This document shows, piece by piece, positions 1,513 to 18,524 of a DNA stretch of 19,550 bases. Each line of letters starts with the position of its first letter. The first letter of the stretch is position 1. The notes under the pieces are model-generated. The model saw nothing but the letters and a program-made list of their open reading frames with translations. It was not told where the DNA came from and searched no databases. The DNA comes from a virus (lineage: Duplodnaviria; Heunggongvirae; Uroviricota; Caudoviricetes). The position numbers and the translations under genes were made by a program. The stretch is from IMG/VR virus record IMGVR_UViG_2529292888_000015; one strand, given 5' to 3'.

Positions 1513-1523
1513 CCTGAATAAAA

Positions 1524-1937: not shown

Positions 1938-1963
1938 TCCTGCTTTTGTCAGGGAGATCTACC

Positions 1964-2518: not shown

Positions 2519-2575
2519 AACCGTAGCACGTCGTATGCAAGATCGTGCTGCGGTTTATGCTTACCACTTGAAGAT

Positions 2576-3445
<870 letters not shown>

Positions 3446-3528
3446 CTAACCCTTTGAATTTACATAGCGCAAAAAGATACCTTTCCTCATAATGTGAGCT
3501 AATTTTATGTTTCGTTTGATGATCGGGT

Positions 3529-3590
3529 CGGTCTCGAAAACCGGAGTAGGGGCAACTCTACCGGGGGTTCAAATCCCCCTCTCTCCGCCA
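3529..3590 (+). other. 3' fragment (~62 nt) of a tRNA-Ser(CGA) gene, from anticodon stem to CCA; presumed prophage att core duplicate
   Basis: cggtctcgaaaaccggagtaggggcaactctaccgggggttcaaatccccctctctccgcca matches the anticodon loop (CGA), long variable arm, T-arm and acceptor 3' strand of enterobacterial tRNA-Ser, recalled from memory. No matching 5' acceptor strand (GGAGAG...) upstream, so it is not a complete tRNA. Confidence 0.7.
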
Positions 3591-4172
3591 CTTTATCAAT
3601 GACTTATCTCCCGACTTCCCGCCTTGCTTTTCCTAAACAGAACAATCGTAGAATATTCTTGAAGGGTTAGATCGTCACTGTTTTCTGTTCGATACTGTGA
3701 CATTCAGCACTTGATTCGCTATGGATCTGACAGGAAGGTTTTGAGCGAAAATCTGCAGTTATTCAGTCGTTTTCTTATCGGTCACCATTATTCTTTTAGA
3801 CATTGATCCTACAAAGCTGCCGCAAAGTTGGTGGTGGGAACTGAAGTTGCGTAGAGAAGGGGTCAATACCCGGAGGCAAACATGGGCTGGCAAAAGTGTA
3901 GCGGTATTAGGCGCAGCTATTTAGCCTAGTTATGTTTTATGAAAACTTGATATCATATAAGTGTCTTACTTATTGGCTGTAAATAAGTTTTTCCTAAGGA
4001 ATTGTTTCTTGAGTATCATTTGTAACTGTAACGGAATTTATAATCCTTTGCTTTATTGTTACGGTATTTTTTATCACACCCTATTTTTAGTGGTTTTTTA
4101 TACTGAAGTTTGGCAAAGTGAACTTTATATACATATACTTCATCCTGGTTTCAGTTAAATTGGGGGGATGAT

Positions 4173-4916
4173 ATGGCAACTACATGTTCAGTTATATTGA
4201 TTTTGGAGTCCTTTGATGTTTATTTCGGAAAAGAGAGTGTGTTTCTGGAGAGAGGTTCATCTGTACTTGTCGACTCTAGCTCTAGAGATTTTTTCCTGAC
4301 ATATCCTGAAAGAGTGATAGTGGCGGATTTTGGCGCTGAGTTTATTAGTCGCTATTTGAAAGCTAATAACTTAAGGGATATTTCTGATTGTAGGGAATAT
4401 CCATCTTATTTAAAAATAAACTTTGCTGACTTCAGTTTAATTAAAGGATTAATTAGTTGGGCTAATCACTGTGCTGAATACATAGAAATTTTTGATGAGT
4501 CTATTGCTTTTACATGTCTCTCTGCATTTTCTTCTGAAAAACAATTTGGAGTATTTCTGTTTGGATGTTTGAAAAGCACAGGGGCTAAAGTTAAAACGAT
4601 TATTCATACGGATTTATCTGCACCATGGCGTCTTAAGGATATATCATCAAGATTATATCTCAGCGAAAGTTTACTAAAGAGGAAATTGAAAGAAGAGGGG
4701 GTATCATTCAGTAAGATCATACTTGATGAGAGGATGCAAATGGCTGAATATTTACTCAGCACTCGTTGTTATCCTATTAGTAAAGTAGCTAAGGTCTGTG
4801 GTTATGCCAGTGTCTCATACTTTACTTATGTATTTAGACGTTATTTTGGTGTTTCTCCAAGTCAATACTCTCAGAGGAGTTCAGAAAGTAAAATTCTTAC
4901 TCACCAGGGAATCTGA
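4173..4916 (+). CDS. AraC/XylS-family transcriptional regulator (AppY/EnvY/Rns-like small activator)
   Basis: 247 aa; C-terminal AraC-type double HTH (SKIILDERMQMAEYLLSTRCYPISKVAKVCGYASVSYFTYVFRRYFGVSPSQY); AT-rich gene with an extremely AT-rich upstream region. Confidence 0.85.
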   Translation: MATTCSVILILESFDVYFGKESVFLERGSSVLVDSSSRDFFLTYPERVIVADFGAEFISRYLKANNLRDISDCREYPSYLKINFADFSLIKGLISWANHCAEYIEIFDESIAFTCLSAFSSEKQFGVFLFGCLKSTGAKVKTIIHTDLSAPWRLKDISSRLYLSESLLKRKLKEEGVSFSKIILDERMQMAEYLLSTRCYPISKVAKVCGYASVSYFTYVFRRYFGVSPSQYSQRSSESKILTHQGI

Positions 4917-5400
4917 TCATTGTTCTTGCCCCCTTATTTCCAGACAGGGGGGGTATCTTAAGTTAACGTTACCCGCTGACGTCGATATTCTCGCGGAGAG
5001 CGATAACCCAACGCACTGTGCGGATGGTTTTCATTGTAATGTTCGATCGCCACTGCAAGATTATGCAATGCCGTTCTTACATTCGGTTTCGGCATGAACG
5101 CGATGTAGTCTTCCTTCATCGTTTTCACGAACCTTTCTGCAATTCCATTACTCTGAGGACTGCTGATTGCCGTTGTGCAGGGCTCCAGATTCAACTCTCT
5201 GGCGAACTGCCGTGTTTCATGCGCTCTATACGCTGAACCGTTATCTGTCAGCCACTGGATGGACTGTTCCGGTACTTTATCGCCAAAGCGTTTTTCTATC
5301 GCTCCTAACATGACATCCTGCACTGTCGCTTTATCGTAACCTCCCGTGCTTGCGGCCCAGTCTATGGCTTCACGATCGCAACAGTCCAGGGCGATTCATC
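4917..5400 (-). mobile_element. IS2-like (IS3 family) insertion sequence remnant: right terminal repeat plus the 3' part of the transposase gene
   Basis: 4920..4945 (ttgcccccttatttccagaca) resembles the IS2 terminal inverted repeat as recalled from memory; adjacent ORF encodes only the C-terminal DDE-domain portion of an IS3-family transposase. Upper boundary is approximate. Confidence 0.6.
4958..5323 (-). pseudogene. Truncated IS3-family (IS2 OrfB-like) transposase, C-terminal fragment only
   Basis: 121-aa ORF with [21 protein letters not shown]...[20 protein letters not shown]...[12 protein letters not shown], the C-terminal rve/DDE region; the ~180 N-terminal residues and orfA are absent. 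Confidence 0.7.
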
Positions 5401-5670
5401 TGGGCCAATCCTTGCTCATAACAGGCATTCACTTCAGTCATGGCAGAAAGGTATGCATGCTGGAGAAGTCGTGAAAGAAAAGAAGACTGCTGCGCCGTTT
5501 GTCGTCACGTTTATCTTCATTGGCTATGCAAGTCGTAATACAAGGTGGGACAAAACTGAGACACATAAGGCCTCGCAATGGCTTGCAAGGCTTTACATGT
5601 TTTGATGTGGTGGGACGTGTGAGCGCAGTGTTGATGGGGTAATGCTTTGAATTAGAAGCGGATTCTTATA

Positions 5671-5716
5671 ATTCGTAATGCGAAGGTCGTAGGTTCGACT
5701 CCTATTATCGGCACCA
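5671..5716 (+). other. 3' fragment (46 nt) of a tRNA-Thr(CGU) gene; left att site of the P4-like element
   Basis: attcgtaatgcgaaggtcgtaggttcgactcctattatcggcacca matches the anticodon loop to CCA end of enterobacterial tRNA-Thr (thrW-like), recalled from memory; the 5' half is missing. Integrase gene begins 163 bp downstream. Confidence 0.75.
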
Positions 5717-5878
5717 TCTCAACTTCCTCAAACGTCCGTATTAGTCCATAAAATCTCTGATTTATAACATTTTTTATTCTTTTAAGTCCATAGTAGTCCG
5801 TAACCATCCAGTAGAATCCGGTACTGAATGTGTATAGGATTGTGTATATGTTCCTGTTCGGTCTGGATTCCTATACAC

Positions 5879-7060
5879 ATGCCTTTAAACGATATGCAGA
5901 TTCGCCGCGCTAAGCCTGAAGCTAAAGCCTATACATTTGGAGATGGGCTAGGGTTGTCATTACTTATAGAACCTAATGGAAGCAAGAGTTGGCGGTTCCG
6001 CTATCGCTATGCCGGCAAACCCAAAATGATCTCGCTTGGTGTTTACCCAACGATCACCCTTGCCGATGCTCGTTCCCGTCGTGATGAAGCTCGAAAACTT
6101 GTGGCAGAAGGAAAGAACCCTAGTGAGGTTCGAAAAGAGCAAAAGCTAGCTATGCAAACAGAGTCAGAGAACGCCTTCGAAAAGATAGCCAGAGAGTGGC
6201 ATCAACTTAAATCTGCTAAATGGTCGGCGGGATATGCATCAGACATCATGGAAGCGTTTAAGAACGACATTTTTCCTTATGTCGGAACAAGGCCTGTGGG
6301 AGAGATTAAACCGCTAGAGCTGCTGAACGTTCTGCGTAAAATTGAGAAACGTGGTGCGTTGGAGAAAATGCGCAAAGTGCGGCAGCGTTGCTCCGAAGTG
6401 TTTCGCTACGCAATTGCAACGGGTAGGGCGGAGTACAATCCTGCGGCTGATCTCTCCAGCGCTCTCGAAGTACACCAATCCAATCATTTCCCATTCCTAA
6501 AAGCTGATGAGATACCTGATTTTCTACGTGCCTTAGAGGGTTACTCCGGGAGTAAGCTTGTCCAGATAGCCACGAAATTACTGATGATTACGGGTGTGAG
6601 AACCATCGAATTACGCGCGGCATTATGGCAAGAATTTGATCTGGATAACGCTATTTGGGAAATTCCTGCTGAAAGGATGAAAATGCGTAGGCCACATCTT
6701 GTGCCCTTATCATCTCAAGCGGTAGATTTACTCAATGAACTCAAGATCATGACAGGGAACTATCGTTATGTTTTTCCAGGGCGGAACGATCCGAATAGGC
6801 CAATGAGCGAAGCGAGTATAAATCAAGCCATTAAGCGTATTGGGTATGGAGGAAAAGTCACTGGACATGGTTTTCGTCATACCCTTTCTACAATCCTGCA
6901 TGAGCAAGGTTTTGAGAGTGCTTGGATTGAAATCCAGTTGGCTCATGTAGATAAAAATTCTATTAGGGGGACTTATAACCATGCTCAATATTTTAGTGGA
7001 AGGAAGTCTATGATGGACTGGTACAGTAATTTGATATTTGAAAGACTAAAAAGGAGTTAA
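5879..7060 (+). CDS. int: P4-type tyrosine integrase
   Basis: N-terminus MPLNDMQIRRAKPEAKAYTFGDGLGLSLLIEPNGSKSWRFRYRYAGK is the typical P4-integrase arm-binding start; catalytic HGFRHTLST (HxxR) and C-terminal RGTYNHAQY tyrosine. Start set at ATG 5879 rather than the track's 5828. Confidence 0.92.
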   Translation: MPLNDMQIRRAKPEAKAYTFGDGLGLSLLIEPNGSKSWRFRYRYAGKPKMISLGVYPTITLADARSRRDEARKLVAEGKNPSEVRKEQKLAMQTESENAFEKIAREWHQLKSAKWSAGYASDIMEAFKNDIFPYVGTRPVGEIKPLELLNVLRKIEKRGALEKMRKVRQRCSEVFRYAIATGRAEYNPAADLSSALEVHQSNHFPFLKADEIPDFLRALEGYSGSKLVQIATKLLMITGVRTIELRAALWQEFDLDNAIWEIPAERMKMRRPHLVPLSSQAVDLLNELKIMTGNYRYVFPGRNDPNRPMSEASINQAIKRIGYGGKVTGHGFRHTLSTILHEQGFESAWIEIQLAHVDKNSIRGTYNHAQYFSGRKSMMDWYSNLIFERLKRS

Positions 7061-7063
7061 TTT

Positions 7064-7480
7064 GTGTCTCAACCACTTTCGGAAATATTGACATGGGATG
7101 ATGAACAATGGGAGGTATTTGTCCATGATTGGCTTATTGTCTGTAAATCAGATGATTACCCGTGGAGCGAACGTTTGGGAGGAGCTGGAGATAAAGGTAG
7201 AGACGTTGTTGGATATAAATCGGATCCTAACGTAGAAGGTTATTCTTGGGATAATTATCAATGCAAACTGTACAAAAAAAGTTTAGGGTTCTCTGATGTT
7301 GTAGTTGAGTTTGGAAAACTTATCTATTTTACTCTGAATGGTGATTATCCCATCCCTCAGAAGTACTTTTTTGTGGCACCCTATGATTTATCTACTACAT
7401 TTTCTAATTTATTGAAAAATAAAAACGAGCTTAAAAAAGCAGTCCTTGATTCATGGGATTCAGCAATTTCAAAAAAATAA
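7064..7480 (+). CDS. Mrr-like PD-(D/E)xK restriction-endonuclease catalytic domain protein; probable N-terminal part of a frameshifted effector gene (LmuA-like)
   Basis: GTG start with AAAAAGGAG RBS overlapping the int stop. GDKGRDVVGY ... DNYQCKLYKK ... KYFFVAPYDLSTTF aligns with the Mrr_cat motif order (GDGGIDG ... VQAKR ... GVFITTSGFT). ORF ends at a TAA immediately after an A7 run. Confidence 0.6.
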   Translation: MSQPLSEILTWDDEQWEVFVHDWLIVCKSDDYPWSERLGGAGDKGRDVVGYKSDPNVEGYSWDNYQCKLYKKSLGFSDVVVEFGKLIYFTLNGDYPIPQKYFFVAPYDLSTTFSNLLKNKNELKKAVLDSWDSAISKK

Positions 7481-8070
7481 CTAAAAAGATTGATATTCCA
7501 TTAGATGATGAAATAAAAAAATATATTGAGGATTTTGATTTTAGTATTTTTTACTCTCTACCCTTATCATTGATTTTAAATGATATTGCAAATACACACC
7601 TTTATTTTAAGTACTTTAACGAGCTGTATGTCGTGAGAATCCCTCCAAATGAAATTCCAACATACAATTCAAAAAAAGAGTCTGTATATGTTAATGCACT
7701 GCTTCAAGCCTATTCAGAGCATGGAAATAAAACTTATAGTTCTTTCTTAGAGCTTGATGATCCATACAGACGACACTTTAATAATAGTAGAAATGATTTT
7801 TATTTTGCATCTTCGCTTGAGGTTTTTGTCCGCGAAGTATTTAAAGATGATGTATTCAAAGCATTGAAATGTTACATTTCATCTTCAATTGAACCCGTCT
7901 TTTATGAAGACCATAATTATGCATTTATTAGGTGTAATGCAGTCTTGAAGCAGGCTGTTCTGACACCAATTGCACATTCAGTACTATCAAAAATATGTGA
8001 AGCAAATGATAAAAAAGGAATATGCCATCATTTGGTTAATGATGGTGAAGTAATTTGGACGGTGAGATAA
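7453..8070 (+). CDS. Hypothetical protein; probable C-terminal part of the same effector gene, in a different frame
   Basis: Overlaps the previous ORF by 28 nt; one extra A in the 7471..7477 run would fuse the two into a ~335-aa protein. Stop overlaps the next start (TAATG at 8068..8072). Very AT-rich. Confidence 0.55.
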   Translation: MGFSNFKKITKKIDIPLDDEIKKYIEDFDFSIFYSLPLSLILNDIANTHLYFKYFNELYVVRIPPNEIPTYNSKKESVYVNALLQAYSEHGNKTYSSFLELDDPYRRHFNNSRNDFYFASSLEVFVREVFKDDVFKALKCYISSSIEPVFYEDHNYAFIRCNAVLKQAVLTPIAHSVLSKICEANDKKGICHHLVNDGEVIWTVR

Positions 8071-8528
8071 TGGTTAGAATTTATAATTCAAGTTTAGAAG
8101 TGGCATGTCGAATGGCGAAAGTGCTCGTCGCTATTTATCCTTCTTCATTAAGCCTTGAACGGCTTATTTGTTTTGATTTTATTTTAGTAAATCTTAAGGA
8201 TTTTTTACCTGAAGAGATTAGTCTTCATCCTCCAATACCCCGTAGAGATGCTCAGTTAGCCCTAAAACGAGAGATTGTTTTAGAATCATTGGCTTTGTTG
8301 CAAGGCTATGAACTAGCCTCAAAAATTTATACACATCGTGGTTTTGTATATAAAGCTTCTGAAAAAACATATGCATTTACAAATTCTCTACATAATGAAT
8401 ATGTTGCGCAGATGGAGCATAATATAAATTTGGTGGTTAAGTTATATAGTGATATTCCTGATGAGCAGTTGCAATCAATTATAAAAAATAAAATTGGCAA
8501 ATATGATATGGAATTTAATTATGAATGA
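8070..8528 (+). CDS. Small predicted alpha-helical protein (~152 aa), middle gene of the cargo operon (LmuC/DdmB-like position)
   Basis: ATG at 8070 coupled to the upstream stop; stop TGA at 8526..8528 overlaps the downstream ATG at 8521 (ATGAATGA). No recognisable catalytic motif. Confidence 0.6.
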   Translation: MVRIYNSSLEVACRMAKVLVAIYPSSLSLERLICFDFILVNLKDFLPEEISLHPPIPRRDAQLALKREIVLESLALLQGYELASKIYTHRGFVYKASEKTYAFTNSLHNEYVAQMEHNINLVVKLYSDIPDEQLQSIIKNKIGKYDMEFNYE

Positions 8529-9153
8529 CAATTTTTTTACGTTCAGAAAAATAAAGGTAACCGGATTCAATAAATTAGATGCTATAATTGAATTTGGTTC
8601 TAAATTGACTATTTTATATGGTGGTTCTGACTCTGGAAAAACATACATATATTATTTGATTCGATATTTATTAGGGAGTGAAAAACTAAAAAATAAAGAT
8701 ATCGATCATGCTCAAGGTTATGATTTAGCCTATCTGGAATTTAATTTTCAAGGTAGGGTAATGACAATTGAGAGGTCTCTTCAGGATAGCGCCCATTACA
8801 GATTATATGATTCGAGCATTGAAAATGTTAGTGAAGCTAATCTGTTGATGGTTTTTTCCAAAAGTGCTTCGTCTAAAAAGAGTTTTTCATCATACTTTTA
8901 TGGTAGGTTGAATTTCAAAGAGGCTAAAGTAAGAACAAACTTAAGTAATACTCTTCATAAATTTAATCTTAATAATGTTTTTGAATTTTTTTGTATTGAT
9001 GAATTAAGAGTGTTAACTGAGAAGTCGTTAATTCTTTCTGATATTCCTAGCGAGGAGACAAAAAGAAAGTCTGAATTTAAATTCCTTTTAACTCAGAGAG
9101 ATGATACTAACTCCTTAGCAGAAAAACCAAATAAAAAAGCAAGATATTTTTAA
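8521..9153 (+). CDS. SMC/Rad50/RecF-like ABC ATPase, N-terminal head with Walker A; apparently terminated by an in-frame TAA
   Basis: FRKIKVTGFNKLDAIIEFGSKLTILYGGSDSGKTYIYYLIRYLLG is the SMC_N/AAA_23-type N-terminal strand plus Walker A (GGSDSGKT). The next ORF is in the same frame, separated only by TAA 9151..9153. Confidence 0.65.
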   Translation: MNDNFFTFRKIKVTGFNKLDAIIEFGSKLTILYGGSDSGKTYIYYLIRYLLGSEKLKNKDIDHAQGYDLAYLEFNFQGRVMTIERSLQDSAHYRLYDSSIENVSEANLLMVFSKSASSKKSFSSYFYGRLNFKEAKVRTNLSNTLHKFNLNNVFEFFCIDELRVLTEKSLILSDIPSEETKRKSEFKFLLTQRDDTNSLAEKPNKKARYF

Positions 9154-9183
9154 AAAAATCAAATTGCAAATATTTATGAGGAA

Positions 9184-9774
9184 TTGAAAGCGCAATTAAT
9201 TTATCCTGAATATGATCAAGTCATTGTTTCAAGAGAACTTGAGAAAGTAGAGCAAGATATTGAATCATCGAAAGATATATTGAAAGGTATTGTTGATGCA
9301 CTTGATGATAAGAAGCAATTATTAAAAGAGTTAAGTGATGAATTATATTCAATCAGTGACAGGGAAAAATACTTATCATTACTCATTGAAAGATTTAGTC
9401 TTCTTAAAGACCAATACTTTATAGATCTACAAAGAATAGATGTTGTATCACAGGCGAATTTCTATTTAAATAATTTTGCAGATATTTATTGTGAGTTCTG
9501 TAATACACCGCAAAAAAAAGAAAATGAAATATCATATGATGATTGTTTTTTGTCGTGTAATGCAGAAAAATTGAAAATCAAAAGCCAGCTGAAAGGATTA
9601 ATTGAATCAATCGGATCTAATGTTCGCGAACATGAATTAATTATGTTAAGAAAAAATGATGTTAATGAAATTTATCAATCAGAAAAAAGTGATTTTAAGA
9701 CGTTAGAAGATAAAAATATAAAACAATACATTCATCTCTTGAATCACTTTATGAATATAAAGACAATCTTTTAA
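9184..9774 (+). CDS. Coiled-coil segment with a central CxxC (CEFC), probable middle part of the same SMC-like ATPase
   Basis: Charged heptad-like sequence (ELEKVEQDIESSKDILKGIVDALDDKKQLLKELSDEL...); no in-frame ATG start (track uses TTG at 9184); same frame as 8521..9153. Confidence 0.5.
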   Translation: MKAQLIYPEYDQVIVSRELEKVEQDIESSKDILKGIVDALDDKKQLLKELSDELYSISDREKYLSLLIERFSLLKDQYFIDLQRIDVVSQANFYLNNFADIYCEFCNTPQKKENEISYDDCFLSCNAEKLKIKSQLKGLIESIGSNVREHELIMLRKNDVNEIYQSEKSDFKTLEDKNIKQYIHLLNHFMNIKTIF

Positions 9775-10340
9775 TGGATCACACAAAACATAGCATTCTA
9801 TCTTCATTACAAGATAAAGAAGATGATGTTGACGAACTTAAATACTCCGCCGAGGACTTTGACTCCTTAACAGTAGCTGATTTGTATGATATAGAAATAG
9901 CGATGCAAGACTTTTTGAATGATATAAATTTTGAAAATTCTAAAGATAACAAAGTGCGATTTGACGAAGATACATATGACTTTAATATCAATGGGAAACG
10001 CCGAGGAATGTTTGGTAAAGGTACCCGTGCAGTAATGCATGCTATATTTACCATTTGCTTTGCGGAATTTTTATCAAGAAAAGGGAATCCATTCATTGGA
10101 TTTGTTGTGCTTGATAGTCCATTAGTGACGCACTTTGATAAAGATAGAGGGGGTTCTCTATCGGATGTTAATAGCGTCAGTCTCAGTGATTCATTTTATC
10201 ACGCATTAATCAAAAGGGACTATAATTTCCAGATTGTAATTCTTGAGAATAAAGGTCCGACGTTCCAAATAAAAATTAATGATGCAAATAAAATCCATAA
10301 CTTAAATAAGAATGGAAGCTCTGGTTTTTATCCTGTTTAA
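9774..10340 (+). CDS. C-terminal head of an SMC-like ABC ATPase (signature-like and Walker B-like motifs, both non-canonical)
   Basis: GMFGKGTRAVMHAIFTICFAEFL ... FIGFVVLDSPL ... FQIVILEN occupy the positions of the signature, Walker B and H-loop of SMC-type heads but are degenerate (DS instead of DE). Start overlaps the upstream stop (TAATG); one extra A in the runs at 9712..9723 would fuse it to the preceding ORF. Confidence 0.55.
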   Translation: MDHTKHSILSSLQDKEDDVDELKYSAEDFDSLTVADLYDIEIAMQDFLNDINFENSKDNKVRFDEDTYDFNINGKRRGMFGKGTRAVMHAIFTICFAEFLSRKGNPFIGFVVLDSPLVTHFDKDRGGSLSDVNSVSLSDSFYHALIKRDYNFQIVILENKGPTFQIKINDANKIHNLNKNGSSGFYPV

Positions 10341-10370
10341 TACATTAAAAATATAACTGCTAATTGGGGT

Positions 10371-10396
10371 GCTCGAAATTATATTTCGTTTCGAGC
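10371..10396 (+). terminator. Hairpin downstream of the cargo operon (possible terminator, no clear U-tract)
   Basis: gctcgaaa (10371..10378) pairs with tttcgagc (10389..10396), beginning 31 bp after the stop at 10340. Confidence 0.3.
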
Positions 10397-10749
10397 GCTC
10401 AGTTCATTTCTAAATAATTTGCAAAATTATTTTGGGTACTTTCGCCTCTACACTTCCTTCGGGTGGTTCCACAATAATGGATCTCACCGGCGTTTGATAT
10501 TTTATAATCTAACCCCTTAGCGCGCGCAGCCCCCCACGCCTGCTCGCTTCGCTTAACAGACTGGTTTTCATGCATTCCGCAAATCGTCTCAGAAGCCACC
10601 ACACAAGGGCTTTCGCGTCAAAAATGGTGCATGAGAATCATGCGTTTTCATGCGCTATAGACATGCACTCATGCGCTCTCAGGCCAGCCAGGGAAAAGGC
10701 GTAAAAAATCCCAGTACTGGACCGGGATTACGTGGGCTTTTTTTGCTAA

Positions 10750-11022
10750 TCAGACAGGAATTTGCTGACGGCTTGACAGCTTTGACGCGGAGCCATAGCG
10801 ATTGAGAGTTTGCTGTTGTTTTTCCGGCATTTGTGCTTTCTCTGATTCCTGTTCATTGCGCCGGGGCTTCATGATTATCGTATCCACACTTTCCAGTGCG
10901 GTAAATGTGTAGGAACATTCAAGATTCTGGCACTGATACCATGAGCGTTTAACCGATGGTGCTTCATAGGCGGAGGTTCTGGCGTGTGCCGTCGTACCGC
11001 ATTCGGGACATTTAAGTGCCAT
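10750..11022 (-). CDS. Ogr/Delta-family zinc-finger late-gene transcriptional activator
   Basis: MALKCPECGTTAHARTSAYEAPSVKRSWYQCQNLECSYTFTALESV follows the Ogr pattern C..C..AHARTS...QC.N..CS.TF..ESV; GGAG RBS inside the end of the upstream gene. Confidence 0.85.
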   Translation of the reverse strand: MALKCPECGTTAHARTSAYEAPSVKRSWYQCQNLECSYTFTALESVDTIIMKPRRNEQESEKAQMPEKQQQTLNRYGSASKLSSRQQIPV

Positions 11023-11027
11023 TAATA

Positions 11028-11579
11028 TTACTCCTGCATGCCGTTAATGTAATCCAGACGTTGCTGAAAGCGCAGTTGTTGTGCAGGGGTGTAAGAGCTC
11101 TGGCAATCACGAACCATCATGGGGTCAGGCATCACACCGGATTCATCCAGAATCATACGATAATCCCCGGCAATTTCAGGCGGTGTTATTGCCAGCTGGC
11201 GAACCAGAGCATTGCGTAATATACGGGACGCAACGTCAACCCCTCCGCGCCCCTTCAGGAACGGAGCCAGTGCAGATGTCAGGGCTGCTCCATTCGCCTG
11301 CATAAAATTGCTGAGAGCGTCTTCTGTGCAGGCCTCCATCAGTTGATGCTGCGAGTAAATGCATTCGCGCGCAGCACAGTTAATTTGCCATTTCAGCACA
11401 TCCAGATGTTCCCGCTGTAATTCGAGCTGTCGAGCATAATCTGCTGGTTTTTCCATGGCAGTGAGGAGTGATTCTATCTGTTGTTCAACGGCTTTTCGGC
11501 TCTCACTATGTCCAGCCCACAGAATACGGGCATTTCTAAAACTGATAAGCGCTTGGTCTGGAGTGACTCGGGCCATCAT
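11028..11579 (-). CDS. psu: P4 Psu-like protein (polarity suppression / capsid decoration), assignment tentative
   Basis: 183 aa, close to P4 Psu size; sits in the late operon directly upstream of the Ogr/Delta gene and is coupled to the preceding gene (ATGA overlap at 11576..11579). Similarity to Psu is from imperfect memory. Confidence 0.5.
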   Translation of the reverse strand: MMARVTPDQALISFRNARILWAGHSESRKAVEQQIESLLTAMEKPADYARQLELQREHLDVLKWQINCAARECIYSQHQLMEACTEDALSNFMQANGAALTSALAPFLKGRGGVDVASRILRNALVRQLAITPPEIAGDYRMILDESGVMPDPMMVRDCQSSYTPAQQLRFQQRLDYINGMQE

Positions 11580-12328
11580 ACTGCTTTCTCCTTCTCAGCA
11601 CGTTCCTGACGAACCTTCATTTTATGCATAGCTGCTGGAGAGAGTTTATTACTGAAATCCAGACGGGCCGCATAATCCGGGGCAACTCCCGCCAGTTTAA
11701 ACACGGGGTCCTGTTCGGGCATCGCATCGTTAGTCAGAGCCGGTCTGGTGATATGTTTATGAATAAAATCTTTCAGCAGTGTGTCCGGGTCATTAACTGA
11801 ATGCACCACACCGACAACTGCGCTGGCTTCCCTGCCCATTGTTGATTTGAGCAGGCTTAGTGTCTGGATTAGTGCTTTTCCATGCGACTGCATAAAATCT
11901 TCCCAGATTTGTTTTGCGCGAATACCCACAAGGGTGTCGTGCGCGTGGATATACTTTCCGGCTAATTCCGCAGCCTCCTGCGGCAAAAGTGCATTTTCGC
12001 TTTCCTGAGCCGCCAGCAGCTCATCAAAATCCTCAAGCGTTTCTCGTCCCAGCGCAATTTCCGTGCGCAGTTTTTTCATTTCCTTTGAGACTACGCCCTG
12101 ACTTTCACGAAATAGCGTGCGCCACTCCTCATTCAGGGCGTTCGTCGTGGCTTCCATTTCAGCGCGGCGCTGGCGGATTGTCGCAATATTATCCGCTGCC
12201 GCTTTTTGCTGACGACGTGCTTCAAGCCATGCAGATTTGGTGGCATTCACTTTCTCAAGCGCCTGTTGCGTCGAAACAGGGATAGAAATTTCAACGATCG
12301 GGTTATTGTTCTGTTCTGGGATTGTCAT
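11576..12328 (-). CDS. First gene of the P4-like late operon; Sid-like (capsid size determination) by size and position
   Basis: 250-aa predicted helical protein, first gene of the leftward operon, divergent from the alpA/primase operon. No motif-level confirmation. Confidence 0.4.
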   Translation of the reverse strand: MTIPEQNNNPIVEISIPVSTQQALEKVNATKSAWLEARRQQKAAADNIATIRQRRAEMEATTNALNEEWRTLFRESQGVVSKEMKKLRTEIALGRETLEDFDELLAAQESENALLPQEAAELAGKYIHAHDTLVGIRAKQIWEDFMQSHGKALIQTLSLLKSTMGREASAVVGVVHSVNDPDTLLKDFIHKHITRPALTNDAMPEQDPVFKLAGVAPDYAARLDFSNKLSPAAMHKMKVRQERAEKEKAV

Positions 12329-12398
12329 GTCAGCACCTAGTGGTTTGTCGTGGTGTCAATTGTGCTGTGATGCATACAAAGCTGCCATTGAACGCCAT

Positions 12399-12416
12399 TG
12401 TGCGAGCGACAAGACA
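12399..12416 (-). promoter_or_regulatory. Candidate Ogr/Delta-responsive late-promoter element (TGT-N12-ACA) upstream of the late operon
   Basis: tgt gcgagcgacaag aca; centre lies ~80 bp upstream of the 12328 start codon, compatible with a -55 activator site and a ~25-nt leader. Confidence 0.3.
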
Positions 12417-12495
12417 AAGACTGAACCGCCCCGGACCTCTTTTGGCTAGCCAGAAAAGGCCTCGTTTAACTAAGGCTGTTTCAGACTTACCTTAA

Positions 12496-12710
12496 CTATT
12501 CACTACTATTCACTTAGGTAAAAAAAATAGGTAATACAGAAGGTTATAAGGTGAAGGGTTGGCATGGCAGTATTCATCGACTGTTCATAACTGTTCACAT
12601 GGGAATAAAATTATTTATGGTATTTTTTCATAATGGGTGGTTTTTTTATTCCTCGTAGCTATTTGTTTTTTGCTCCTCACCACTATTCACCCTTATTCAG
12701 GAGTATTCAA
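12496..12710. repeat. Iteron-like array: eight YTRTTCAY octamers in three 10-bp-phased clusters with AT-rich spacers (candidate ori/crr-type alpha-binding region)
   Basis: ctattcac at 12496 and 12506; gtattcat 12570, ctgttcat 12581, ctgttcac 12591; ctattcac 12683, ttattcag 12693, gtattcaa 12703. P4 ori and crr are known to carry TGTTCACC repeats bound by alpha. Confidence 0.45.
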
Positions 12711-13261
12711 CAGGCACATAAATAGACTGCATGTTTTTGCCGGGGAATAACATTTTCGCCTCTGGCCATGGTGTTGCATTTCATACTGATTTTTATAAAA
12801 CTAGATCTGTCCGGTTCTTTATGGATTCATTCGGATATATTTTACGATTTAAGGTGATGTTATTTAATATCAAGGTTTTTATGCAGGCCCAATGTTTATA
12901 AGTTGGATGCGATTCAAAAATATGCCCGGAAATTGGGGCCTGCAATGCAAGGCCTCGTGTAGAAGTTGTACTGCCTTGCTGTATTGGCGGTGGGGTTAGC
13001 ACTATCAGGTGCAATGACCCATAGGATAGTAAACCCTGGGTGAATGGTAGTTCCTATTAATGCTCCTGTATTTATAGTCCGCAGGCATGGTATTTATTAT
13101 GTCATTTTATATGGTTTAATCGGGCTTTAAATTCCATAAAATCAATATGTGACGCTAAATAAAAAATGCGTGCGCAGGTGGTTTATATACACATAATAAG
13201 GAACTACCTGAACCCGGATAAATTCATCCGGACTGTTGTGGAAATTAAAGAGGGTAGATAA

Positions 13262-13522
13262 ATGCGTAATATTTCTGTGTCTGCGCCAGCTCCTGCTGCG
13301 CCATTATTTCCTGTATCGAACCATCATGAGCGATTTTTACGCCTGCCTGAGGTGATGCACTTATGCGGGTTGTCCCGTTCGACCGTTTACGACCTGATCA
13401 GCCGCGATGCGTTTCCGAAGCAGATCCCGCTTGGCGGTAAAAATGTCGCCTGGGCACAGTCTGAGGTCAGCGCATGGATGGCGGACCGCATCAGCGCCCG
13501 TGGGCGGGGATGTGATGCATGA
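13262..13522 (+). CDS. alpA: AlpA / Vis-family phage transcriptional regulator (MerR-like HTH, excisionase-like)
   Basis: [50 protein letters not shown] is the AlpA signature; the true start may be downstream of the annotated ATG. Confidence 0.8.
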
Positions 13523-13881
13523 TGATACCTGCATACATTAAATACCTTTATTCTGGCTTGCTTACTGTCGTCATTTCCAGGTATAGTTTTTCCGCTGTCG
13601 CAAAATCGGCAGCCGGAATTGGCGTTCCGTATAACTTATTGGCGACAATTGACGCCCCTTGCGTCTTTTTTTACGTCGTAGCTCAGGCACAACCATTTTC
13701 AGGGCTGTGGTGTTTATGCTTACACCATGGTTCTATCGAGATAATGGTAGTCCGGGCGGGGCAGCCTTCGGGCTGGCCGGTTTCCAATAAGGCCGGTTAC
13801 GCCAACCCCGTTCGGGCTGCCACCAGTGAAATTGGCGTTTCCGGTGGTAGCAATAACCGCTACTTATTGGAGGCTGCCATC

Positions 13882-14076
13882 ATGGCTACAATCCTCACCC
13901 CGTCACACCCGCAATATGTCTTTGTGTTTGCCGCAATCCGCCGTGCTGACACTCACCCCCGCATCTGTATGCTTCGCACTGTCTCCTGCGATGAGCATTC
14001 CGCGCGCCGTTTGCTAGTCCGAGATTATGTACTCTCCCTTTCTGCACGGCTGCCTGCCGGGGAGGTGACGCTATGA
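13882..14076 (+). CDS. Small hypothetical protein (64 aa), first of three translationally coupled small ORFs upstream of the primase
   Basis: ATG at 13882 with GGAGG 8 nt upstream; stop overlaps the next ATG (ATGA at 14073..14076). The track's longer 13519 start gives an implausible N-terminal extension. Confidence 0.4.
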
Positions 14077-14294
14077 ACCAGTTTGAGATTTCCTACGACG
14101 ATGTTGTAAGGCTGAAACATTTACGCAATGTGGGTGAGTATGTAACTGGCATGGCAGCCCTGCAGGACTGTTATGAAAAGCCAGCAGGTGCCCAATGCGA
14201 ACAACTGGTTTCCCTCATTTATCTGATGACAGAGCAACTGGATGGAGTGGTGCAACGCTGCCATGACGACCTGATGAATGCGGAGGTGGCCTGA
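14073..14294 (+). CDS. Small hypothetical protein (73 aa), P4-like early operon
   Basis: Coupled at both ends by overlapping stop/start codons (ATGA at 14073, TGATG at 14292..14296); GGAGG RBS for the next gene lies within its end. Confidence 0.55.
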
Positions 14295-14539
14295 TGATAT
14301 GCTGTGAATCTCTTCTGGCACTTCGTGCCGCTCTGTATCGCCGTGCCATAGCCCGCGAGCTGGAAGGGTTCTATCTGCGCCAGCATGGGCAGCAAAGAGG
14401 GCTGGAAATTGCCTGCGCGTTGCTTTCGGATCTGATGGAGTCGGGGCCGCTTAAAGCCTGTCCGGTTCTCTCACTGCTCGGAATGACGGTCATGGATGAA
14501 CTTTGTTCCCGTCACCTCAACAAACCAGCGCTGCACTAA
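14294..14539 (+). CDS. Small hypothetical protein (81 aa), P4-like early operon
   Basis: ATG 14294 preceded by GGAGGTGG; stop at 14537..14539 lies within the primase RBS region. Confidence 0.55.
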
Positions 14540-14552
14540 GGAGGGCCGCACA

Positions 14553-16886
14553 ATGTCAGGAATGAAAGTTAGCCAGGCTGAGAAAGCAGCTCGGGGTCAC
14601 TGGTCAAGAATTTTACCTGCGCTGGGCGTAAATGTACTGAAAAATCGGCACCAGCCCTGCCCGGTCTGTGCCGGGAAAGACCGCTTTCGATTTGATGACC
14701 AGGAAGGGCGGGGAACGTGGTTCTGTAACCAGTGCGGGGCAGGTGATGGCCTGGCGCTTGTAAGTAAAGTACTGGATGTAGGCATTAGTGAAGCGGCAGA
14801 CAGAATAAACGGCATTATCGGAAACCTGCTGCCAGTATCTCAGGGAATGCTTGAATCTGGTTCTCCTGAAAAAGAGGACGGGAGAAAAGCTGCAGCAGTG
14901 CTGGCTGCCCGTTTGTTTGATAAGTCCCGCCAGACCACTGGCAATGCCTATCTGACGAGTAAAGGGTTTCCTGCACTGCCTTGCCGGGAATTAACCGCTA
15001 TGCATAAAGTCGGTGGTGTGGCATTTCGCGCGGGAGATCTTGTCGTTCCATTGTATGCAGATGGAGAGCTGGTAAATCTGCAGTTAATCAACGCTAATGG
15101 GGGCAAATGCTTCCTTAAAGGCGGTCAGGTTAAGAATGCCTTTTACCTGGTTGAAGGTACTGCCAAAGCAGCCAAACGGCTCTGGATAGCGGAAGGATAT
15201 GCCACCGCACTTACTATCAACTATCTGACTGGCGATGCTGTCATGGTGGCCTTTTCGTCCGTCAATTTCCTTTCCCTGGCGAGCATTGCCTGCAGTGAGT
15301 ACCCAACGCACCAGATAATTATTGCTGCTGACCGCGATCTCAACGGTGCGGGGCAAACAAGGGGCGCAGCTGTTACCGGGGCCTGCAATTGCACAATGGC
15401 GCTCCCGCCTGTGTTTGGTGACTGGAACGATGCATTCACGCAAAACGGCGAAGAAGCCACCCGGCATGCAATTCATGAAGTAATAAAACCAGCTGTTGCC
15501 AGCCCCTTCGACACAATGAGCGAAGCTGAATTTACCGCGCTGAGCGTCAGCGAAAAAGCGCAGAGGGTAGTGGATCACTATAAAAATTCACTGGCAGTAG
15601 ACCCGAACGGGCAGCTCCTTTCACGCTATGAGGCGGGGGCCTGGAAAGTTATCTATTACGCCGATTTTGCCCGTGATGTCGCTGCGCTGTTTCAGCGCCT
15701 CGACGCACCTTTTTCATCCGCGAAAATTGCGTCTCTCGTGGAAACCCTCAAACTGATCGTTCCGCAACAGCAGAATCCGGCGCGGCAACTTATCGGATTT
15801 CGCAACGGTGTGCTCGATACCCGGACAGGATTGTTCAGCCCGCACGATAAGAAGCACTGGTTACGTACGCTGTGCGAGGTGGATTACACGCAGCCCGTTG
15901 ACGGTGAGTCACTGGAAACCCATGCCCCGGCATTCTGGCGCTGGCTGGATCGTGCCGCAGGTTTTAATCCTGAAAAACGGGACATTATTCTGGCTGCATT
16001 GTTTATGGTGCTGGCTAACCGTTATGACTGGCAGCTGTTTCTGGAGGTCACTGGCCCTGGCGGAAGTGGAAAGAGTATTCTTGCTGAAATAGCAACCATG
16101 CTGGCGGGTGAAGATAACGCGACCTCGGCAACCATTGAAATGCTTGAGTCGCCAAGAGAACGAGCTGCGTTAATAGGTTTTTCACTGATTCGACTTCCCG
16201 ACCAGGAAAAGTGGAGCGGTGACGGGGCCGGACTAAAAGCCATCACTGGCGGCGATGCGGTATCCGTTGATCCCAAATATCAGAACGCCTATTCAACCCA
16301 CATCCCGGCGGTCATCCTGGCTGTGAACAATAATCCGATGCGCTTCACTGATCGTAGTGGTGGAGTTTCACGCCGAAGGGTGATCCTGCATTTCCCCGAC
16401 CAGATAGCCCCGGAGGAACGCGATACCCAGCTCAAAGAGAAAATTGCCAGTGAGCTAGCGGTGATTGTTCGCCAGCTTATGCAGCGTTTCAGCGACCCAA
16501 TGAGTGCCAGGACATTGCTTCAGTCACAGCAGAACTCCGATGAAGCGCTCACCATCAAACGTGATGCTGATTCAGCTTTTGATTTTTGCGGCTACCTTGA
16601 GGTCCTACCTGACACCACGGGCATGTTTATGGGGAACGCTAATATTGTTCCACGTCAGCCTCGAACTTACCTCTACCATGCCTATCTGGTCTACATGGAG
16701 GCTAACGGCTATAAAAATACGCTCAGTCTGACCATGTTTGGCAAGGGGCTACCGTTAATGCTCAAGGAATATGGGCTGCAGTATGAGAAACGACGGACCA
16801 ATCAAGGAATGCAGACTAATCTGGCCCTAAGAGAGGAAAGCAATGCTGACTGGTTGCCAAAATGCGATGAGTTTGCAGCGAAATAA
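14553..16886 (+). CDS. P4 alpha-type bifunctional DNA primase/helicase (zinc-binding primase, TOPRIM, D5-like P-loop NTPase)
   Basis: AAGGAGGG RBS at 14538..14545; zinc motif CPVCAGKDRFRF...CNQCGAGDG; TOPRIM acidic motifs (IAEGYATA, IIIAADRDLNG); Walker A GPGGSGKS and Walker B-like region. Start at 14553 rather than the track's 14496. Confidence 0.9.
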   Translation: MSGMKVSQAEKAARGHWSRILPALGVNVLKNRHQPCPVCAGKDRFRFDDQEGRGTWFCNQCGAGDGLALVSKVLDVGISEAADRINGIIGNLLPVSQGMLESGSPEKEDGRKAAAVLAARLFDKSRQTTGNAYLTSKGFPALPCRELTAMHKVGGVAFRAGDLVVPLYADGELVNLQLINANGGKCFLKGGQVKNAFYLVEGTAKAAKRLWIAEGYATALTINYLTGDAVMVAFSSVNFLSLASIACSEYPTHQIIIAADRDLNGAGQTRGAAVTGACNCTMALPPVFGDWNDAFTQNGEEATRHAIHEVIKPAVASPFDTMSEAEFTALSVSEKAQRVVDHYKNSLAVDPNGQLLSRYEAGAWKVIYYADFARDVAALFQRLDAPFSSAKIASLVETLKLIVPQQQNPARQLIGFRNGVLDTRTGLFSPHDKKHWLRTLCEVDYTQPVDGESLETHAPAFWRWLDRAAGFNPEKRDIILAALFMVLANRYDWQLFLEVTGPGGSGKSILAEIATMLAGEDNATSATIEMLESPRERAALIGFSLIRLPDQEKWSGDGAGLKAITGGDAVSVDPKYQNAYSTHIPAVILAVNNNPMRFTDRSGGVSRRRVILHFPDQIAPEERDTQLKEKIASELAVIVRQLMQRFSDPMSARTLLQSQQNSDEALTIKRDADSAFDFCGYLEVLPDTTGMFMGNANIVPRQPRTYLYHAYLVYMEANGYKNTLSLTMFGKGLPLMLKEYGLQYEKRRTNQGMQTNLALREESNADWLPKCDEFAAK

Positions 16887-16892
16887 CTGACC

Positions 16893-16915
16893 TAAGACCG
16901 GCTGTGCCGGTCTTA
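16893..16915 (+). terminator. Strong GC-rich hairpin directly after the primase stop (probable terminator, no U-tract)
   Basis: taagaccggc tgt gccggtctta: perfect 10-bp stem with 3-nt loop beginning 7 nt after the TAA at 16884..16886. Confidence 0.45.
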
Positions 16916-17018
16916 AATCCGCTACAGGAAATTATCTCAAAATATATATCGATAAAATTTAAAAGTTATATGCTAAGGCGTCAGCGGAAAATGCATCTAA
17001 TTCATTGTTAGATGATGT

Positions 17019-17975
17019 TTATTTTTGAATTGATTTAAACATCCCATCGAGTTGTAATTTATTTATGTCGGTTTTCTTTATGGCTTTAATTAAGTTTTCA
17101 ATAACTTCCAAAGAAAAAATTACATCTTTCTTTTCAATTCTAACCCCCCCGTGGTGGCTGCAAGCATTAAGGATGTCCTTTGTAATTTCAACATCATTTT
17201 TCATTAATGGTTCATAGTCCAGAGCCTCAATAACAGAAACTAAACTACCTAGCATTTGCTCTTGGTATTGAACGTTGTTTAAATGCATTATACGAATATT
17301 AACAAGCATGAGAATATATTCTAAATATCTCCTGGCAGTATTTCCTTTCTCTTGTAAAGAATCACGATCATATTCCTCAATACTCATGACTTCATTATGT
17401 AAAGAGGCTATTTTGTGCTCTGCTAATGAAATATTTATCGCATCCATGAGGTTTCGTGAGAAGCCTGTAGATGTAACATGACCATTTGCGGGCCTTGTTA
17501 AAATACATGTAGTATAGCAATTTATATTTGGGGTCTGGATTGTCTCATTTACTCTTTTAACCGTTCTATAAACGTCTACCATATAAGAACCTGAGTTTTC
17601 AAATGAACATGAAGAGCATTTTGTATTATATATTCTATTTAGAGATAACTGATTGTGATAGTATCCCTTTAAGAAAGCATATATAGTGTCATTAAACTCG
17701 ACAAACACAACGGACTCAATATATATATGGAATTTATCATTGGGGTGCCACTCTAATTCAAGTCTTCTTGTAGAGTCATCAAAGGAAAAGTTTGAAATAA
17801 AATCCCAGTTACCTAAATCTATAAAATCAACGATATTTCTACCTGCACCATGGATATTTTTATTTATTAAAGTTGTGATTGAGTTTTTTATAATGTCCCA
17901 ATCATGAATTTCATGATCGAATTTATTATTGATGGTTTCTTTTATTTGATTGGAAAAGTTTGAATAACTAGTCAC
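17019..17975 (-). CDS. Hypothetical protein (318 aa), AT-rich cargo gene between primase and attR; function unknown
   Basis: Long uninterrupted ORF in a very AT-rich block flanked by AT-rich non-coding DNA (16920..17018 and 17976..18505); no motif recognisable by eye. Confidence 0.6.
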   Translation of the reverse strand: MTSYSNFSNQIKETINNKFDHEIHDWDIIKNSITTLINKNIHGAGRNIVDFIDLGNWDFISNFSFDDSTRRLELEWHPNDKFHIYIESVVFVEFNDTIYAFLKGYYHNQLSLNRIYNTKCSSCSFENSGSYMVDVYRTVKRVNETIQTPNINCYTTCILTRPANGHVTSTGFSRNLMDAINISLAEHKIASLHNEVMSIEEYDRDSLQEKGNTARRYLEYILMLVNIRIMHLNNVQYQEQMLGSLVSVIEALDYEPLMKNDVEITKDILNACSHHGGVRIEKKDVIFSLEVIENLIKAIKKTDINKLQLDGMFKSIQK

Positions 17976-18505
17976 TTGTTAGCCTCAAAATTAATAATGA
18001 GTATTAAAATTTAATTGATATTGTCTATAAAATGTAGCGATGCAATTTTATTGCAACGAAATGATTTTTACAACATACCATTATCGCTAAACAAAATCGC
18101 ACCCATCAAATCAACTTACGTTACAATCACTACAAAGCGATTGCATTTAAATTCAAAACAGTTTTCTGTTGGGCGCATTTTTTGTTGTACTGGACTAAAG
18201 AGAAAAAATGGGGTAAGGAACAAATACCTTCCGTGCTCAAAAATTAGGTTTTTATGCACTTATTAATCAGTCAAGGTGAACAGTAAAGTGTTCACTTCTT
18301 ATCAATCGTTAATTTCATATCTTTTTGAATATTAATGAAAAAAAACACAATGAGTAGTATGAACAGTTTTCCCCCAAAAAAAGTTTTTTCTGCCTTGAGA
18401 ATGCGCGGAAAGCGAACGCCTTCACCAATGTGTATAGGGGTGTGTGTAGTTTAAATCTTCTATTTTAATTTATGTATTAAAATCATTGTGTTGGTGGCGA
18501 TTATT

Positions 18506-18524
18506 GGTTCCTATTATCGCACCA
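18506..18524 (+). repeat. Degenerate direct repeat of the tRNA-Thr 3' end; candidate attR of the P4-like element
   Basis: ggttcctattatcgcacca versus ggttcgactcctattatcggcacca at 5692..5716: shared ggttc, cctattatcg and cacca in order, with two small gaps. Confidence 0.45.

What the first reader, a model, noticed from the sequence alone, without database searches (positions are those of the whole stretch)
17019..17975. Second AT-rich cargo gene between the primase terminator and attR
A 318-aa ORF with no motif I can recognise sits alone on the opposite strand in the only other variable slot of the satellite, embedded in very AT-rich DNA with a ~530-bp AT-rich upstream region (17976..18505), typical of xenogeneic, H-NS-silenced cargo. 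Single-gene cargo in satellite variable regions is frequently abortive-infection or anti-phage, so it is a candidate uncharacterised defence or accessory gene.
Basis: inference. Interest (0 to 1): 0.5.

Follow-up and report, generated by a model that had tools for sequence, protein, structure and literature searches.

The report
Uncharacterised HEPN-like cargo gene in satellite
A real, well-conserved but unannotated 318-aa gene sits in a known minor defence hotspot of a P4-like phage satellite in E. coli O157:H7, and its predicted fold (an unknown sensor-like domain plus a HEPN-type RNase-like domain) makes it a plausible, untested single-gene anti-phage suicide toxin.

Summary
ORF 17019..17975 (-), 318 aa, is a genuine gene: RefSeq calls the same CDS, dN/dS against homologues is 0.06-0.13, and it is present in 307 of 5426 complete E. 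coli genomes (listed hits are O157:H7, one O55:H7). It lies inside a thrW-integrated P4-like satellite (attL 5671-5716, attR 18509-18524).

Comparison with P4 and related satellites delimits a 1358-bp cargo module, 16915-18272. This module replaces about 20 bp in an empty-slot satellite and a different gene in another. Only 297 bp of the "530-bp upstream region" is cargo. The rest is conserved satellite right-end DNA carrying integrase arm-type repeats.

The protein matches no Pfam, NCBIfam, PHROG or PADLOC model. Its family is small: 108 cluster representatives among 1.84 billion proteins. Members occur solo in satellites, an ICE, integrase islands and chromosomal islets, and are AT-rich in every host.

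Best reading: a new sensor-HEPN abortive-infection candidate. Function is untested.

The parts
17019..17975 (-). ORF318: 318-aa protein with an N-terminal beta-rich domain (aa 1-165) and a C-terminal HEPN-like helical domain (aa 170-318)
16915..18272 (.). Cargo module (1358 bp): the insertion relative to P4 and related P4-like satellites. It contains ORF318, 104 bp downstream and 297 bp upstream.
   Evidence: Homology to satellites L016/L017 and to phage P4 stops at 16914 and resumes at 18273-18276. L017 has only about 20 bp between these points.
17976..18272 (-). Cargo-specific AT-rich upstream region, presumed to hold the gene's own promoter. Consensus-like sites lie at 18027-18000, 18073-18045 and 18109-18080.
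   Evidence: Promoter-like matches are no more frequent than in shuffled sequence, so the promoter is inferred only. There is no similarity to the upstream DNA of homologues, no tandem repeats, no Rfam hit and no conserved small ORF.
16889..16919 (.). Hairpin between the convergent primase and ORF318 genes, equivalent to the P4 alpha terminator
   Evidence: Terminator-like scan. P4 annotates 't-alpha' at the homologous place.
18273..18492 (.). Conserved satellite right-end block. It has an inverted pair of P4 type-1-like repeats (18275-18296) and tandem integrase arm-type repeats TGTGT[AG]TA (18429, 18441). It is not part of the cargo.
   Evidence: About 74-83% identical in other P4-like satellites that lack ORF318. 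Repeat D13 matches 5827-5848 next to int. P4 has crr and attP arm repeats in this position. The single iteron pair is not above chance.
18509..18524 (+). attR: a 16-nt copy of the 3' end of tRNA-Thr (thrW), followed by native chromosomal flank and the LysR gene
   Evidence: Other E. coli genomes align from 18509 onward, across thrW. blastn of BL21 thrW against the window.
5671..5716 (+). attL: a 46-nt, 100% identical copy of the 3' part of thrW, just upstream of the satellite integrase (5828-7060)
   Evidence: ARAGORN finds no complete tRNA in the window.

Best explanation
ORF318 is an autonomous, horizontally mobile, single-gene accessory module. It was inserted into the minor cargo hotspot of a P4-like satellite, between the alpha-primase terminator and the attP arm / attR.

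It most likely encodes a two-domain abortive-infection-type defence protein:
- An N-terminal beta-rich domain (aa 1-165) with a conserved acidic/aromatic motif G45-x4-D50-F-x-D53-x3-W57-D58, plus W76 and Y154. This would act as the sensor or autoinhibitory module.
- A C-terminal HEPN-like four-helix domain (aa 170-318), which would be the effector.

Proposed mechanism, with status of each step:
1. Shown: the fold, the conserved residues, the cargo status and the solo occurrence.
2. Inferred: the protein is made at a low level from its own promoter in the 297-bp AT-rich leader and is inactive.
3. Inferred: a phage-derived trigger (a protein, nucleic acid or small molecule) binds the N-domain and causes dimerisation or oligomerisation of the HEPN domains.
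4. Inferred: this assembles a composite metal-independent RNase site from H274, N270 and S273 (end of helix 3) and R215, E219 and K223 (one face of helix 2).
5. Inferred: cleavage of tRNA, rRNA or mRNA stops translation, aborts the infection and protects the clonal population and the resident satellite.
For: Cargo status:
- Breakpoints at 16914/18273 against P4 and two related satellites, one with an empty slot.
- The slot is reported as a defence hotspot holding 7% of P4 defence systems (PMC13586616).

Real, selected gene:
- dN/dS 0.06-0.13.
- Invariant blocks DRDxLQEKGNTARRYxEY and LNxCSHHGG among close homologues.

Mobility and autonomy:
- Homologues occur solo in a Citrobacter ICE next to a methyltransferase, ArdC and a type I R-M; next to Ogr/Delta in a Providencia P4-like remnant; directly after a thrW integrase in another E. 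coli island; in an integrase/AlpA island; and in small chromosomal islets of Proteus, Serratia and Aeromonas.
- No conserved neighbouring gene, flanking small ORF or flanking DNA was found.
- The gene is 28-36% GC even in loci of 57-62% GC.

Fold:
- AF2 pLDDT 87.8, pTM 0.84.

Active-site-like conservation:
- Across 74 diverse family representatives the only invariant residues are R215, E219 and H274. N212, K223, N270, S273 and G277 are at least 90% conserved.
[quoted passage not shown] These are the positions Anantharaman et al. give for the HEPN catalytic His and the conserved acidic residue (PMC3710099).

Other points:
- Weak single-member Pfam hits to three HEPN-clan families: DUF4145 at 0.023, PaREP1 at 0.036, Ribonuc_2-5A at 0.18.
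- Precedents for the sensor-domain + HEPN single-protein design: RAZR/PD-T7-4 (PMC13017515) and DS-11 CBS-HEPN (PMC13092281).
Against: - There is no experimental evidence of any phenotype.
- The canonical Arg of the Rx4-6H motif is absent. Positions 266-269 are hydrophobic or variable, so RNase activity is not assured.
- Some HEPN-fold families are non-catalytic.
- No member of the family is recognised by PADLOC.
- The promoter is not distinguishable from chance in this AT-rich DNA.
- Rousset et al. found no activity for a system from O157:H7 FRIK944. That was from the other hotspot, but it shows that cargo of this lineage may be inactive against common phage panels.
Confidence: 0.45

Rival explanations
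1. Toxin half of an addiction or stabilisation module, i.e. a toxin-antitoxin system whose antitoxin is an unannotated small RNA or peptide in the 297-bp leader. It would serve to keep the satellite or island in the genome rather than to sense phage.
For: HEPN proteins are frequent TA toxins (HEPN-MNT hits 7ae2, 5yep and 8xdj). The gene sits on mobile elements and is preceded by a long non-coding leader here and in the Serratia and Proteus loci.
Against: No MNT or other conserved neighbour was found in 9 distinct contexts. There is no conserved flanking DNA or small ORF. There are no tandem repeats of the ToxI type and no Rfam hit. The Citrobacter copy has only about 245 bp upstream. The 165-aa conserved N-domain suggests intramolecular regulation instead.
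Confidence: 0.1
2. A non-catalytic HEPN-like protein. The invariant R/E/H/N cluster would bind a ligand or partner rather than cleave RNA. The function could be regulatory, an anti-defence or counter-defence role for the mobile element, or another accessory role.
For: The canonical catalytic Arg is missing. Several HEPN families are inactive binding domains (PMC3710099). In the Citrobacter ICE the gene lies beside the anti-restriction gene ardC and a methyltransferase, a region that can carry anti-defence genes.
Against: The exact retention of His at the end of helix 3 with N at -4 and S at -1, plus an invariant R-x3-E in helix 2, across relatives at about 20% identity looks like an enzyme site. 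Families 'with conserved H but lacking R' are still listed among predicted nucleases (c2405, PaREP1). Occurrence as a solo gene in chromosomal islets without an MGE argues against a transfer-specific anti-defence role.
Confidence: 0.2
3. A protein of another, unknown function whose C-terminal helical bundle only resembles HEPN by convergence. The slot location would say nothing about function.
Confidence: 0.2
4. A component of the satellite's own life cycle, such as helper exploitation, replication (a crr-associated factor) or excision control.
For: It occupies the place where P4 has its cis replication region crr, next to the attP arm sites.
Against: Closely related satellites lack it entirely or carry a different gene there. 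Most homologues are outside satellites. It is nearly absent from phage records, with one weak tblastn hit.
Confidence: 0.03

Closest known systems
DUF4145-type HEPN defence proteins, e.g. RAZR / PD-T7-4 (zinc-finger + DUF4145 RNase; PMC13017515)
   Different: The N-domain is beta-rich (YojF/ChuX/PH-like), not a zinc ribbon. The Arg 8 residues before the His (RAZR R146/H154) is not conserved here; position 266 is V/I/A/K. There is no significant Pfam DUF4145 or PADLOC PD-T7-4 match. The trigger and oligomeric state are unknown.
'c2405' and PaREP1 groups of the HEPN superfamily ('conserved H but lacks R'; Anantharaman et al. 2013, PMC3710099)
   Same: HEPN-like domain that retains the His but not the canonical Arg. 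In c2405 it is fused to an N-terminal alpha+beta domain of about 180 aa and is predicted to act in abortive infection.
   Different: The c2405 N-domain is AbiTii. None of the 74 family members scanned showed an AbiTii match in the listed results (the top 25 of 43 families).
Classical single-gene HEPN Abi/defence proteins (AbiD/F, AbiJ, AbiU2, AbiV, ApeA, DS-11 CBS-HEPN)
   Same: Solo genes on mobile elements or defence hotspots. They have a variable N-terminal domain plus a C-terminal HEPN, and a presumed suicide RNase action.
   Different: These carry Rx4-6H, and Pfam and PADLOC models exist for them. ORF318 matches none of them.
RnlA/LsoA HEPN toxins
   Same: A multi-domain E. coli endoribonuclease with a C-terminal HEPN. 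It recurs as a weak full-length Foldseek match at E 0.05-0.3.
   Different: The match is not significant (TM 0.13). RnlA has a cognate antitoxin, RnlB, encoded adjacently; no partner gene is found here.

Membership tests
HEPN superfamily (fold level) | [quoted passage not shown] | tested here: met
HEPN superfamily (catalytic RNase members) | Rx4-6H motif at the end of helix 3 / start of the helix 3-4 loop | tested here: not met
   H274 is invariant and correctly placed. The residues 4-6 positions before it are 268 (variable), 269 (L/A/S) and N270. No Arg is conserved there or at -8. The motif is N-x2-S-H.
HEPN superfamily (catalytic RNase members) | Conserved acidic/polar residue in helix 2 near the motif | tested here: met
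   E219 is invariant in 74/74 representatives. It is flanked by invariant R215 and K223 (72/74) on the same helical face.
HEPN superfamily (catalytic RNase members) | Metal-independent RNase activity, usually as a dimer with a composite site | not testable with these tools
   Needs biochemistry or a multimer prediction.
Pfam DUF4145 (PF13643) | Significant match to the family profile | tested here: not met
   There is no hit for ORF318 at E <= 10. One of 25 C-domains scores E 0.023 and one of 74 full-length members scores E 0.042, both below significance.
Known anti-phage defence systems (PADLOC-DB v2) | Match to any defence protein model | tested here: not met
   0 hits for ORF318. Across 74 family members there are only scattered single chance-level hits. 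DefenseFinder and post-2023 models were not available.
Cargo of the P4-like satellite primase-att hotspot | Located between the alpha terminator and the att site, and variable among related satellites | tested here: met
   Breakpoints lie at 16914/18273. An empty slot is seen in L017 and L021, and a different gene in L016. The hotspot is described in PMC13586616.
Abortive-infection / anti-phage function | Protects a population from phage, with growth arrest or death of infected cells | not testable with these tools
   No experiment is possible. No publication mentioning WP_000205213 was found.
Type II/III toxin-antitoxin module | Conserved adjacent antitoxin gene or repeat RNA | tested here: not met
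   No conserved neighbour, flanking ORF, flanking DNA or tandem repeat was found.

The most novel reading that the evidence does not exclude
ORF318 founds a previously undescribed single-protein immune family. A new beta-rich sensor domain (acidic/aromatic pocket D50/D53/W57/D58) would directly recognise a phage or helper-phage cue. It would switch on a non-canonical HEPN nuclease that uses an Arg donated from helix 2 (R215) in place of the classical Rx4-6H arginine. That would be a new catalytic arrangement within the HEPN superfamily, carried by a satellite to exclude competing phages.
Probability: 0.2. Interest if true: 0.6.

Novelty: new variant of a known kind. Interest (0 to 1): 0.45.

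Why it matters
If it is active, this would add an unannotated single-gene system to the anti-phage repertoire of E. coli O157:H7. In that lineage it is fixed alongside an ABC-three-component system on the same satellite.

It would also provide a concrete example for the little-studied primase-att hotspot of P4-like satellites. And it would give a natural test case for how a HEPN site can work without its signature arginine.

The family is small, found mainly in Enterobacterales plus Aeromonas among close homologues. It is invisible to Pfam, NCBIfam, PHROGs and PADLOC, so genome surveys currently miss it. If it turns out to be inactive or non-defensive, it is just one more hypothetical cargo gene.

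Tried and rejected
- Pfam, NCBIfam, PHROGs and PADLOC scans of ORF318 gave nothing significant. Scans of 74 family members (Pfam, PADLOC) and of 25 C-domains (Pfam) gave only chance-level or weak hits.
- Profile searches of PDB sequences with A1 and A3 found nothing meaningful.
- A profile search with the C-domain alone against 5.8 G proteins returned only the family's own members and no HEPN-annotated protein.
- Foldseek against the PDB found nothing at E <= 0.001. The AFDB library was unavailable.
- The genome-contig scan returned only one locus.
- The idea that the AT-rich leader is a P4 ori/crr was rejected. There is one exact TGTTCACC and one 1-mismatch copy, which is not above chance. 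These copies also lie in the conserved block, not in the cargo.
- A ToxI-like repeat RNA or known ncRNA in the leader was rejected: no tandem repeats and no Rfam hit.
- A conserved small antitoxin ORF or conserved leader DNA was not found.
- Literature searches found no match. The accession search returned none. The gene is not among the new P4 systems Crouga, Bandua, Aernus, Toga, Reve and Hailong. It is not found by accession or motif in the stored DefensePredictor supplements, some of which were cut when stored.
- An hhalign test against a DUF4145 alignment could not be set up because no seed sequence was obtainable.

Full report
**1. The observation**

- The window is the thrW region of E. 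coli O157:H7. It is 100% identical to many O157:H7 chromosomes.
- ORF 17019..17975 (-) is 318 aa. It has a GTG start and a TGAGG Shine-Dalgarno-like sequence upstream.
- RefSeq annotates the same CDS as hypothetical protein WP_000205213.1.
- It is convergent with the P4-type primase (14496..16886). A hairpin at 16889-16919 separates them, and P4 annotates the matching hairpin as the alpha terminator.
- The gene is 31% GC and its surroundings about 30%. The primase is 52-55% GC.
- It is clearly coding. dN/dS is 0.06 against the Citrobacter homologue and 0.13 against the Providencia homologue. Long invariant peptide blocks are shared by 33 aligned sequences.

**2. Boundaries of the element and of the cargo**

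- No tRNA gene lies in the window.
- E. coli genomes without an island align from 18509 onward, and that alignment starts inside tRNA-Thr thrW.
- Window 18509-18524 is a 16-nt copy of the thrW 3' end (attR). Window 5671-5716 is a 46-nt, 100% identical copy (attL), just upstream of the integrase at 5828-7060.
- The satellite therefore spans about 5671-18524, and a prophage remnant lies to its left.
- Arm-type repeats TGTGT[AG]TA flank both ends (5829, 5841, 5879 and 18429, 18441). P4 attP is organised the same way.
- Homology to P4 and to two related E. coli satellites ends at 16914 and resumes at 18273.
- At this junction:
  - L017 has about 20 bp.
  - L016 carries an unrelated 357-aa gene.
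  - L021 is empty, but has an HsdR-N-domain gene further on.
- The cargo module is therefore 16915-18272 (1358 bp).
18273-18492 is conserved satellite DNA.
- A 2026 survey reports this primase-att interval as a minor defence hotspot holding 7% of P4 defence systems (PMC13586616).

**3. The protein family**

- There is no significant hit in Pfam, NCBIfam, PHROGs or PADLOC.
- A word-indexed search of 5.8 G proteins found 36 relatives. All are 'hypothetical', from Enterobacterales and Aeromonas.
- An exhaustive profile search of 1.84 G cluster representatives found only 108 at E <= 0.001. Some carry unannotated extensions or a DUF3775 N-terminal domain.
- None of the 74 representatives scanned is recognised by PADLOC.
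- The gene is nearly absent from phage and plasmid records.
- In complete E. coli genomes the locus is present in 307 of 5426. Listed hits are O157:H7, plus one O55:H7 strain.

**4. Genomic contexts of homologues**

| Host / locus | Context |
|---|---|
| Citrobacter | ICE cargo, beside an N6/N4 methyltransferase, ArdC and a type I R-M with AAA_15 |
| Providencia | Next to Ogr/Delta in a P4-like remnant |
| Another E. coli | First gene after a thrW integrase, beside a Y4jQ three-gene cluster |
| L018 (organism not determined) | Integrase/AlpA island next to mutS |
| Proteus, Serratia, Aeromonas | Small chromosomal islets |

- No neighbouring gene, flanking small ORF or flanking DNA is conserved.
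- The gene is 28-36% GC everywhere, even in loci of 57-62% GC.
- This is the signature of an autonomous, frequently transferred single-gene module.

**5. Structure**

- AlphaFold2 with the family alignment gives pLDDT 87.8 and pTM 0.84.
  - HEPN toxins 7ae2, 5yep and 8xdj
  - sacsin HEPN
  - Csm6
- AbiA and Cas13b follow further down the list.
- The N-terminal domain was modelled alone at pLDDT 92.8. It is a beta-rich alpha+beta domain.
- Foldseek of the whole model against the PDB found nothing significant. Weak recurrent hits to the HEPN toxin RnlA appear at E 0.05-0.3.

**6. Conserved residues**

- Across 74 diverse representatives (about 20% identity) the only invariant residues are R215, E219 and H274. 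N212, K223, Y237, G243, L245, N270, S273 and G277 are at least 90% conserved.
- These form two motifs:
  - N-x2-R-R-x2-E-x3-K on one face of helix 2.
  - N-x2-S-H-[DH]-x-G at the end of helix 3.
[quoted passage not shown] H274 and E219 are therefore in the canonical active-site positions.
- The signature Arg is missing, because positions 266-269 are hydrophobic or variable. That paper lists such families ('conserved H but lacks R': c2405, PaREP1).
- In RAZR (DUF4145) the catalytic pair is R146/H154 (PMC13017515). The equivalent -8 position here is not Arg.
- Whether the invariant R215 substitutes for it is an inference.
- Weak Pfam hits of single members to DUF4145, PaREP1 and Ribonuc_2-5A are consistent with this but not significant.
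- In the N-domain, G45, D50, F51, D53, W57, D58, W76, Y154 and K/R161 are conserved. This suggests a binding pocket.

**7. Interpretation**

- The best-supported reading is a single-protein sensor-effector defence candidate of the abortive-infection type. An unknown N-terminal sensor would control a non-canonical HEPN-like RNase. The satellite would carry it as accessory cargo.
- Shown: gene reality, cargo status, hotspot location, solo mobility, predicted fold, and the position of conserved residues.
- Inferred: expression, trigger, oligomerisation, RNase chemistry and the defence phenotype.
- Rival readings:
  - A non-catalytic HEPN-like binding or regulatory protein, or an anti-defence protein.
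  - A toxin with an undetected antitoxin.
  - A merely convergent helical bundle of unknown function.
  - A satellite life-cycle role, which the empty-slot satellites largely exclude.

**8. Novelty and score**

- The design 'variable N-domain + HEPN effector, single gene, on a mobile element' is well known. Examples are AbiD/F/J/U2/V, ApeA, RAZR and DS-11.
- This family is in none of the libraries searched, has an unassigned N-domain and lacks the canonical Arg.
- It was not among the new P4 systems tested in 2026, nor found in the held DefensePredictor supplements.
- I rate it a new variant of a known kind, of moderate interest (0.45). It is a good, cheap experimental target but not conceptually surprising unless the atypical active site or the sensor proves new.

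Noticed in passing
window 7453-10340 (+): The main psu-int hotspot of the same satellite carries genes that RefSeq names 'ABC-three component system protein' and 'middle component 2', plus three hypothetical genes. The region is very AT-rich (27-34% GC). Rousset et al. 2022 synthesised a P4-hotspot system from O157:H7 FRIK944 and saw no activity on their panel. It is probably this locus, but that was not verified.
   Followed up: partly
window 5671-5716 and 1-5670: The satellite's attL is a 46-nt copy of thrW that lies to the right of a prophage remnant (tail-fibre assembly genes, pinE, AraC-type regulator, GIY-YIG protein). The thrW locus therefore holds a tandem array of elements. In some O157:H7 strains (e.g. 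PV15-279, L001) IS1203 has deleted the satellite integrase and the DNA to its left.
   Followed up: partly
window 18273-18492: This right-end block is conserved at 74-83% in other P4-like satellites. It starts with an inverted pair GGTGAACA-n6-TGTTCACT resembling P4 alpha-binding type-1 repeats, and contains tandem arm-type repeats. P4 has its 300-bp crr with ten type-1 repeats here, but this satellite has only the one pair. Where its crr/ori equivalent lies is therefore unclear.
   Followed up: partly
window 13594-13671 and 13740-13827 (+): Rfam finds isrK (71.9 bits) and C4 antisense RNA (84 bits) inside or overlapping the Icd-like ORF (13519-14076). This is the P4-type immunity RNA region of the satellite.
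   Followed up: no
L016:4746-5819 (E. coli TL012): A different 357-aa hypothetical protein (WP_198068590.1) occupies the same primase-att slot in a related thrW satellite. It has no Pfam or PADLOC match. It is another uncharacterised hotspot cargo gene.
   Followed up: partly
L009:11446-16327 (E. coli, thrW island): The 45%-identical homologue P0032 sits directly after a thrW integrase. Beside it is a convergent three-gene cluster: a 1091-aa Y4jQ-family protein, a 149-aa response-regulator-like protein and a 387-aa unknown protein. This may be another defence-like module.
   Followed up: no
L006-L008:11464-12591 (Proteus): In Proteus the homologue is followed on the same strand, about 570 bp downstream, by a 375-aa protein with no Pfam match. 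This was seen only in that genus, so it is not a conserved partner.
   Followed up: partly
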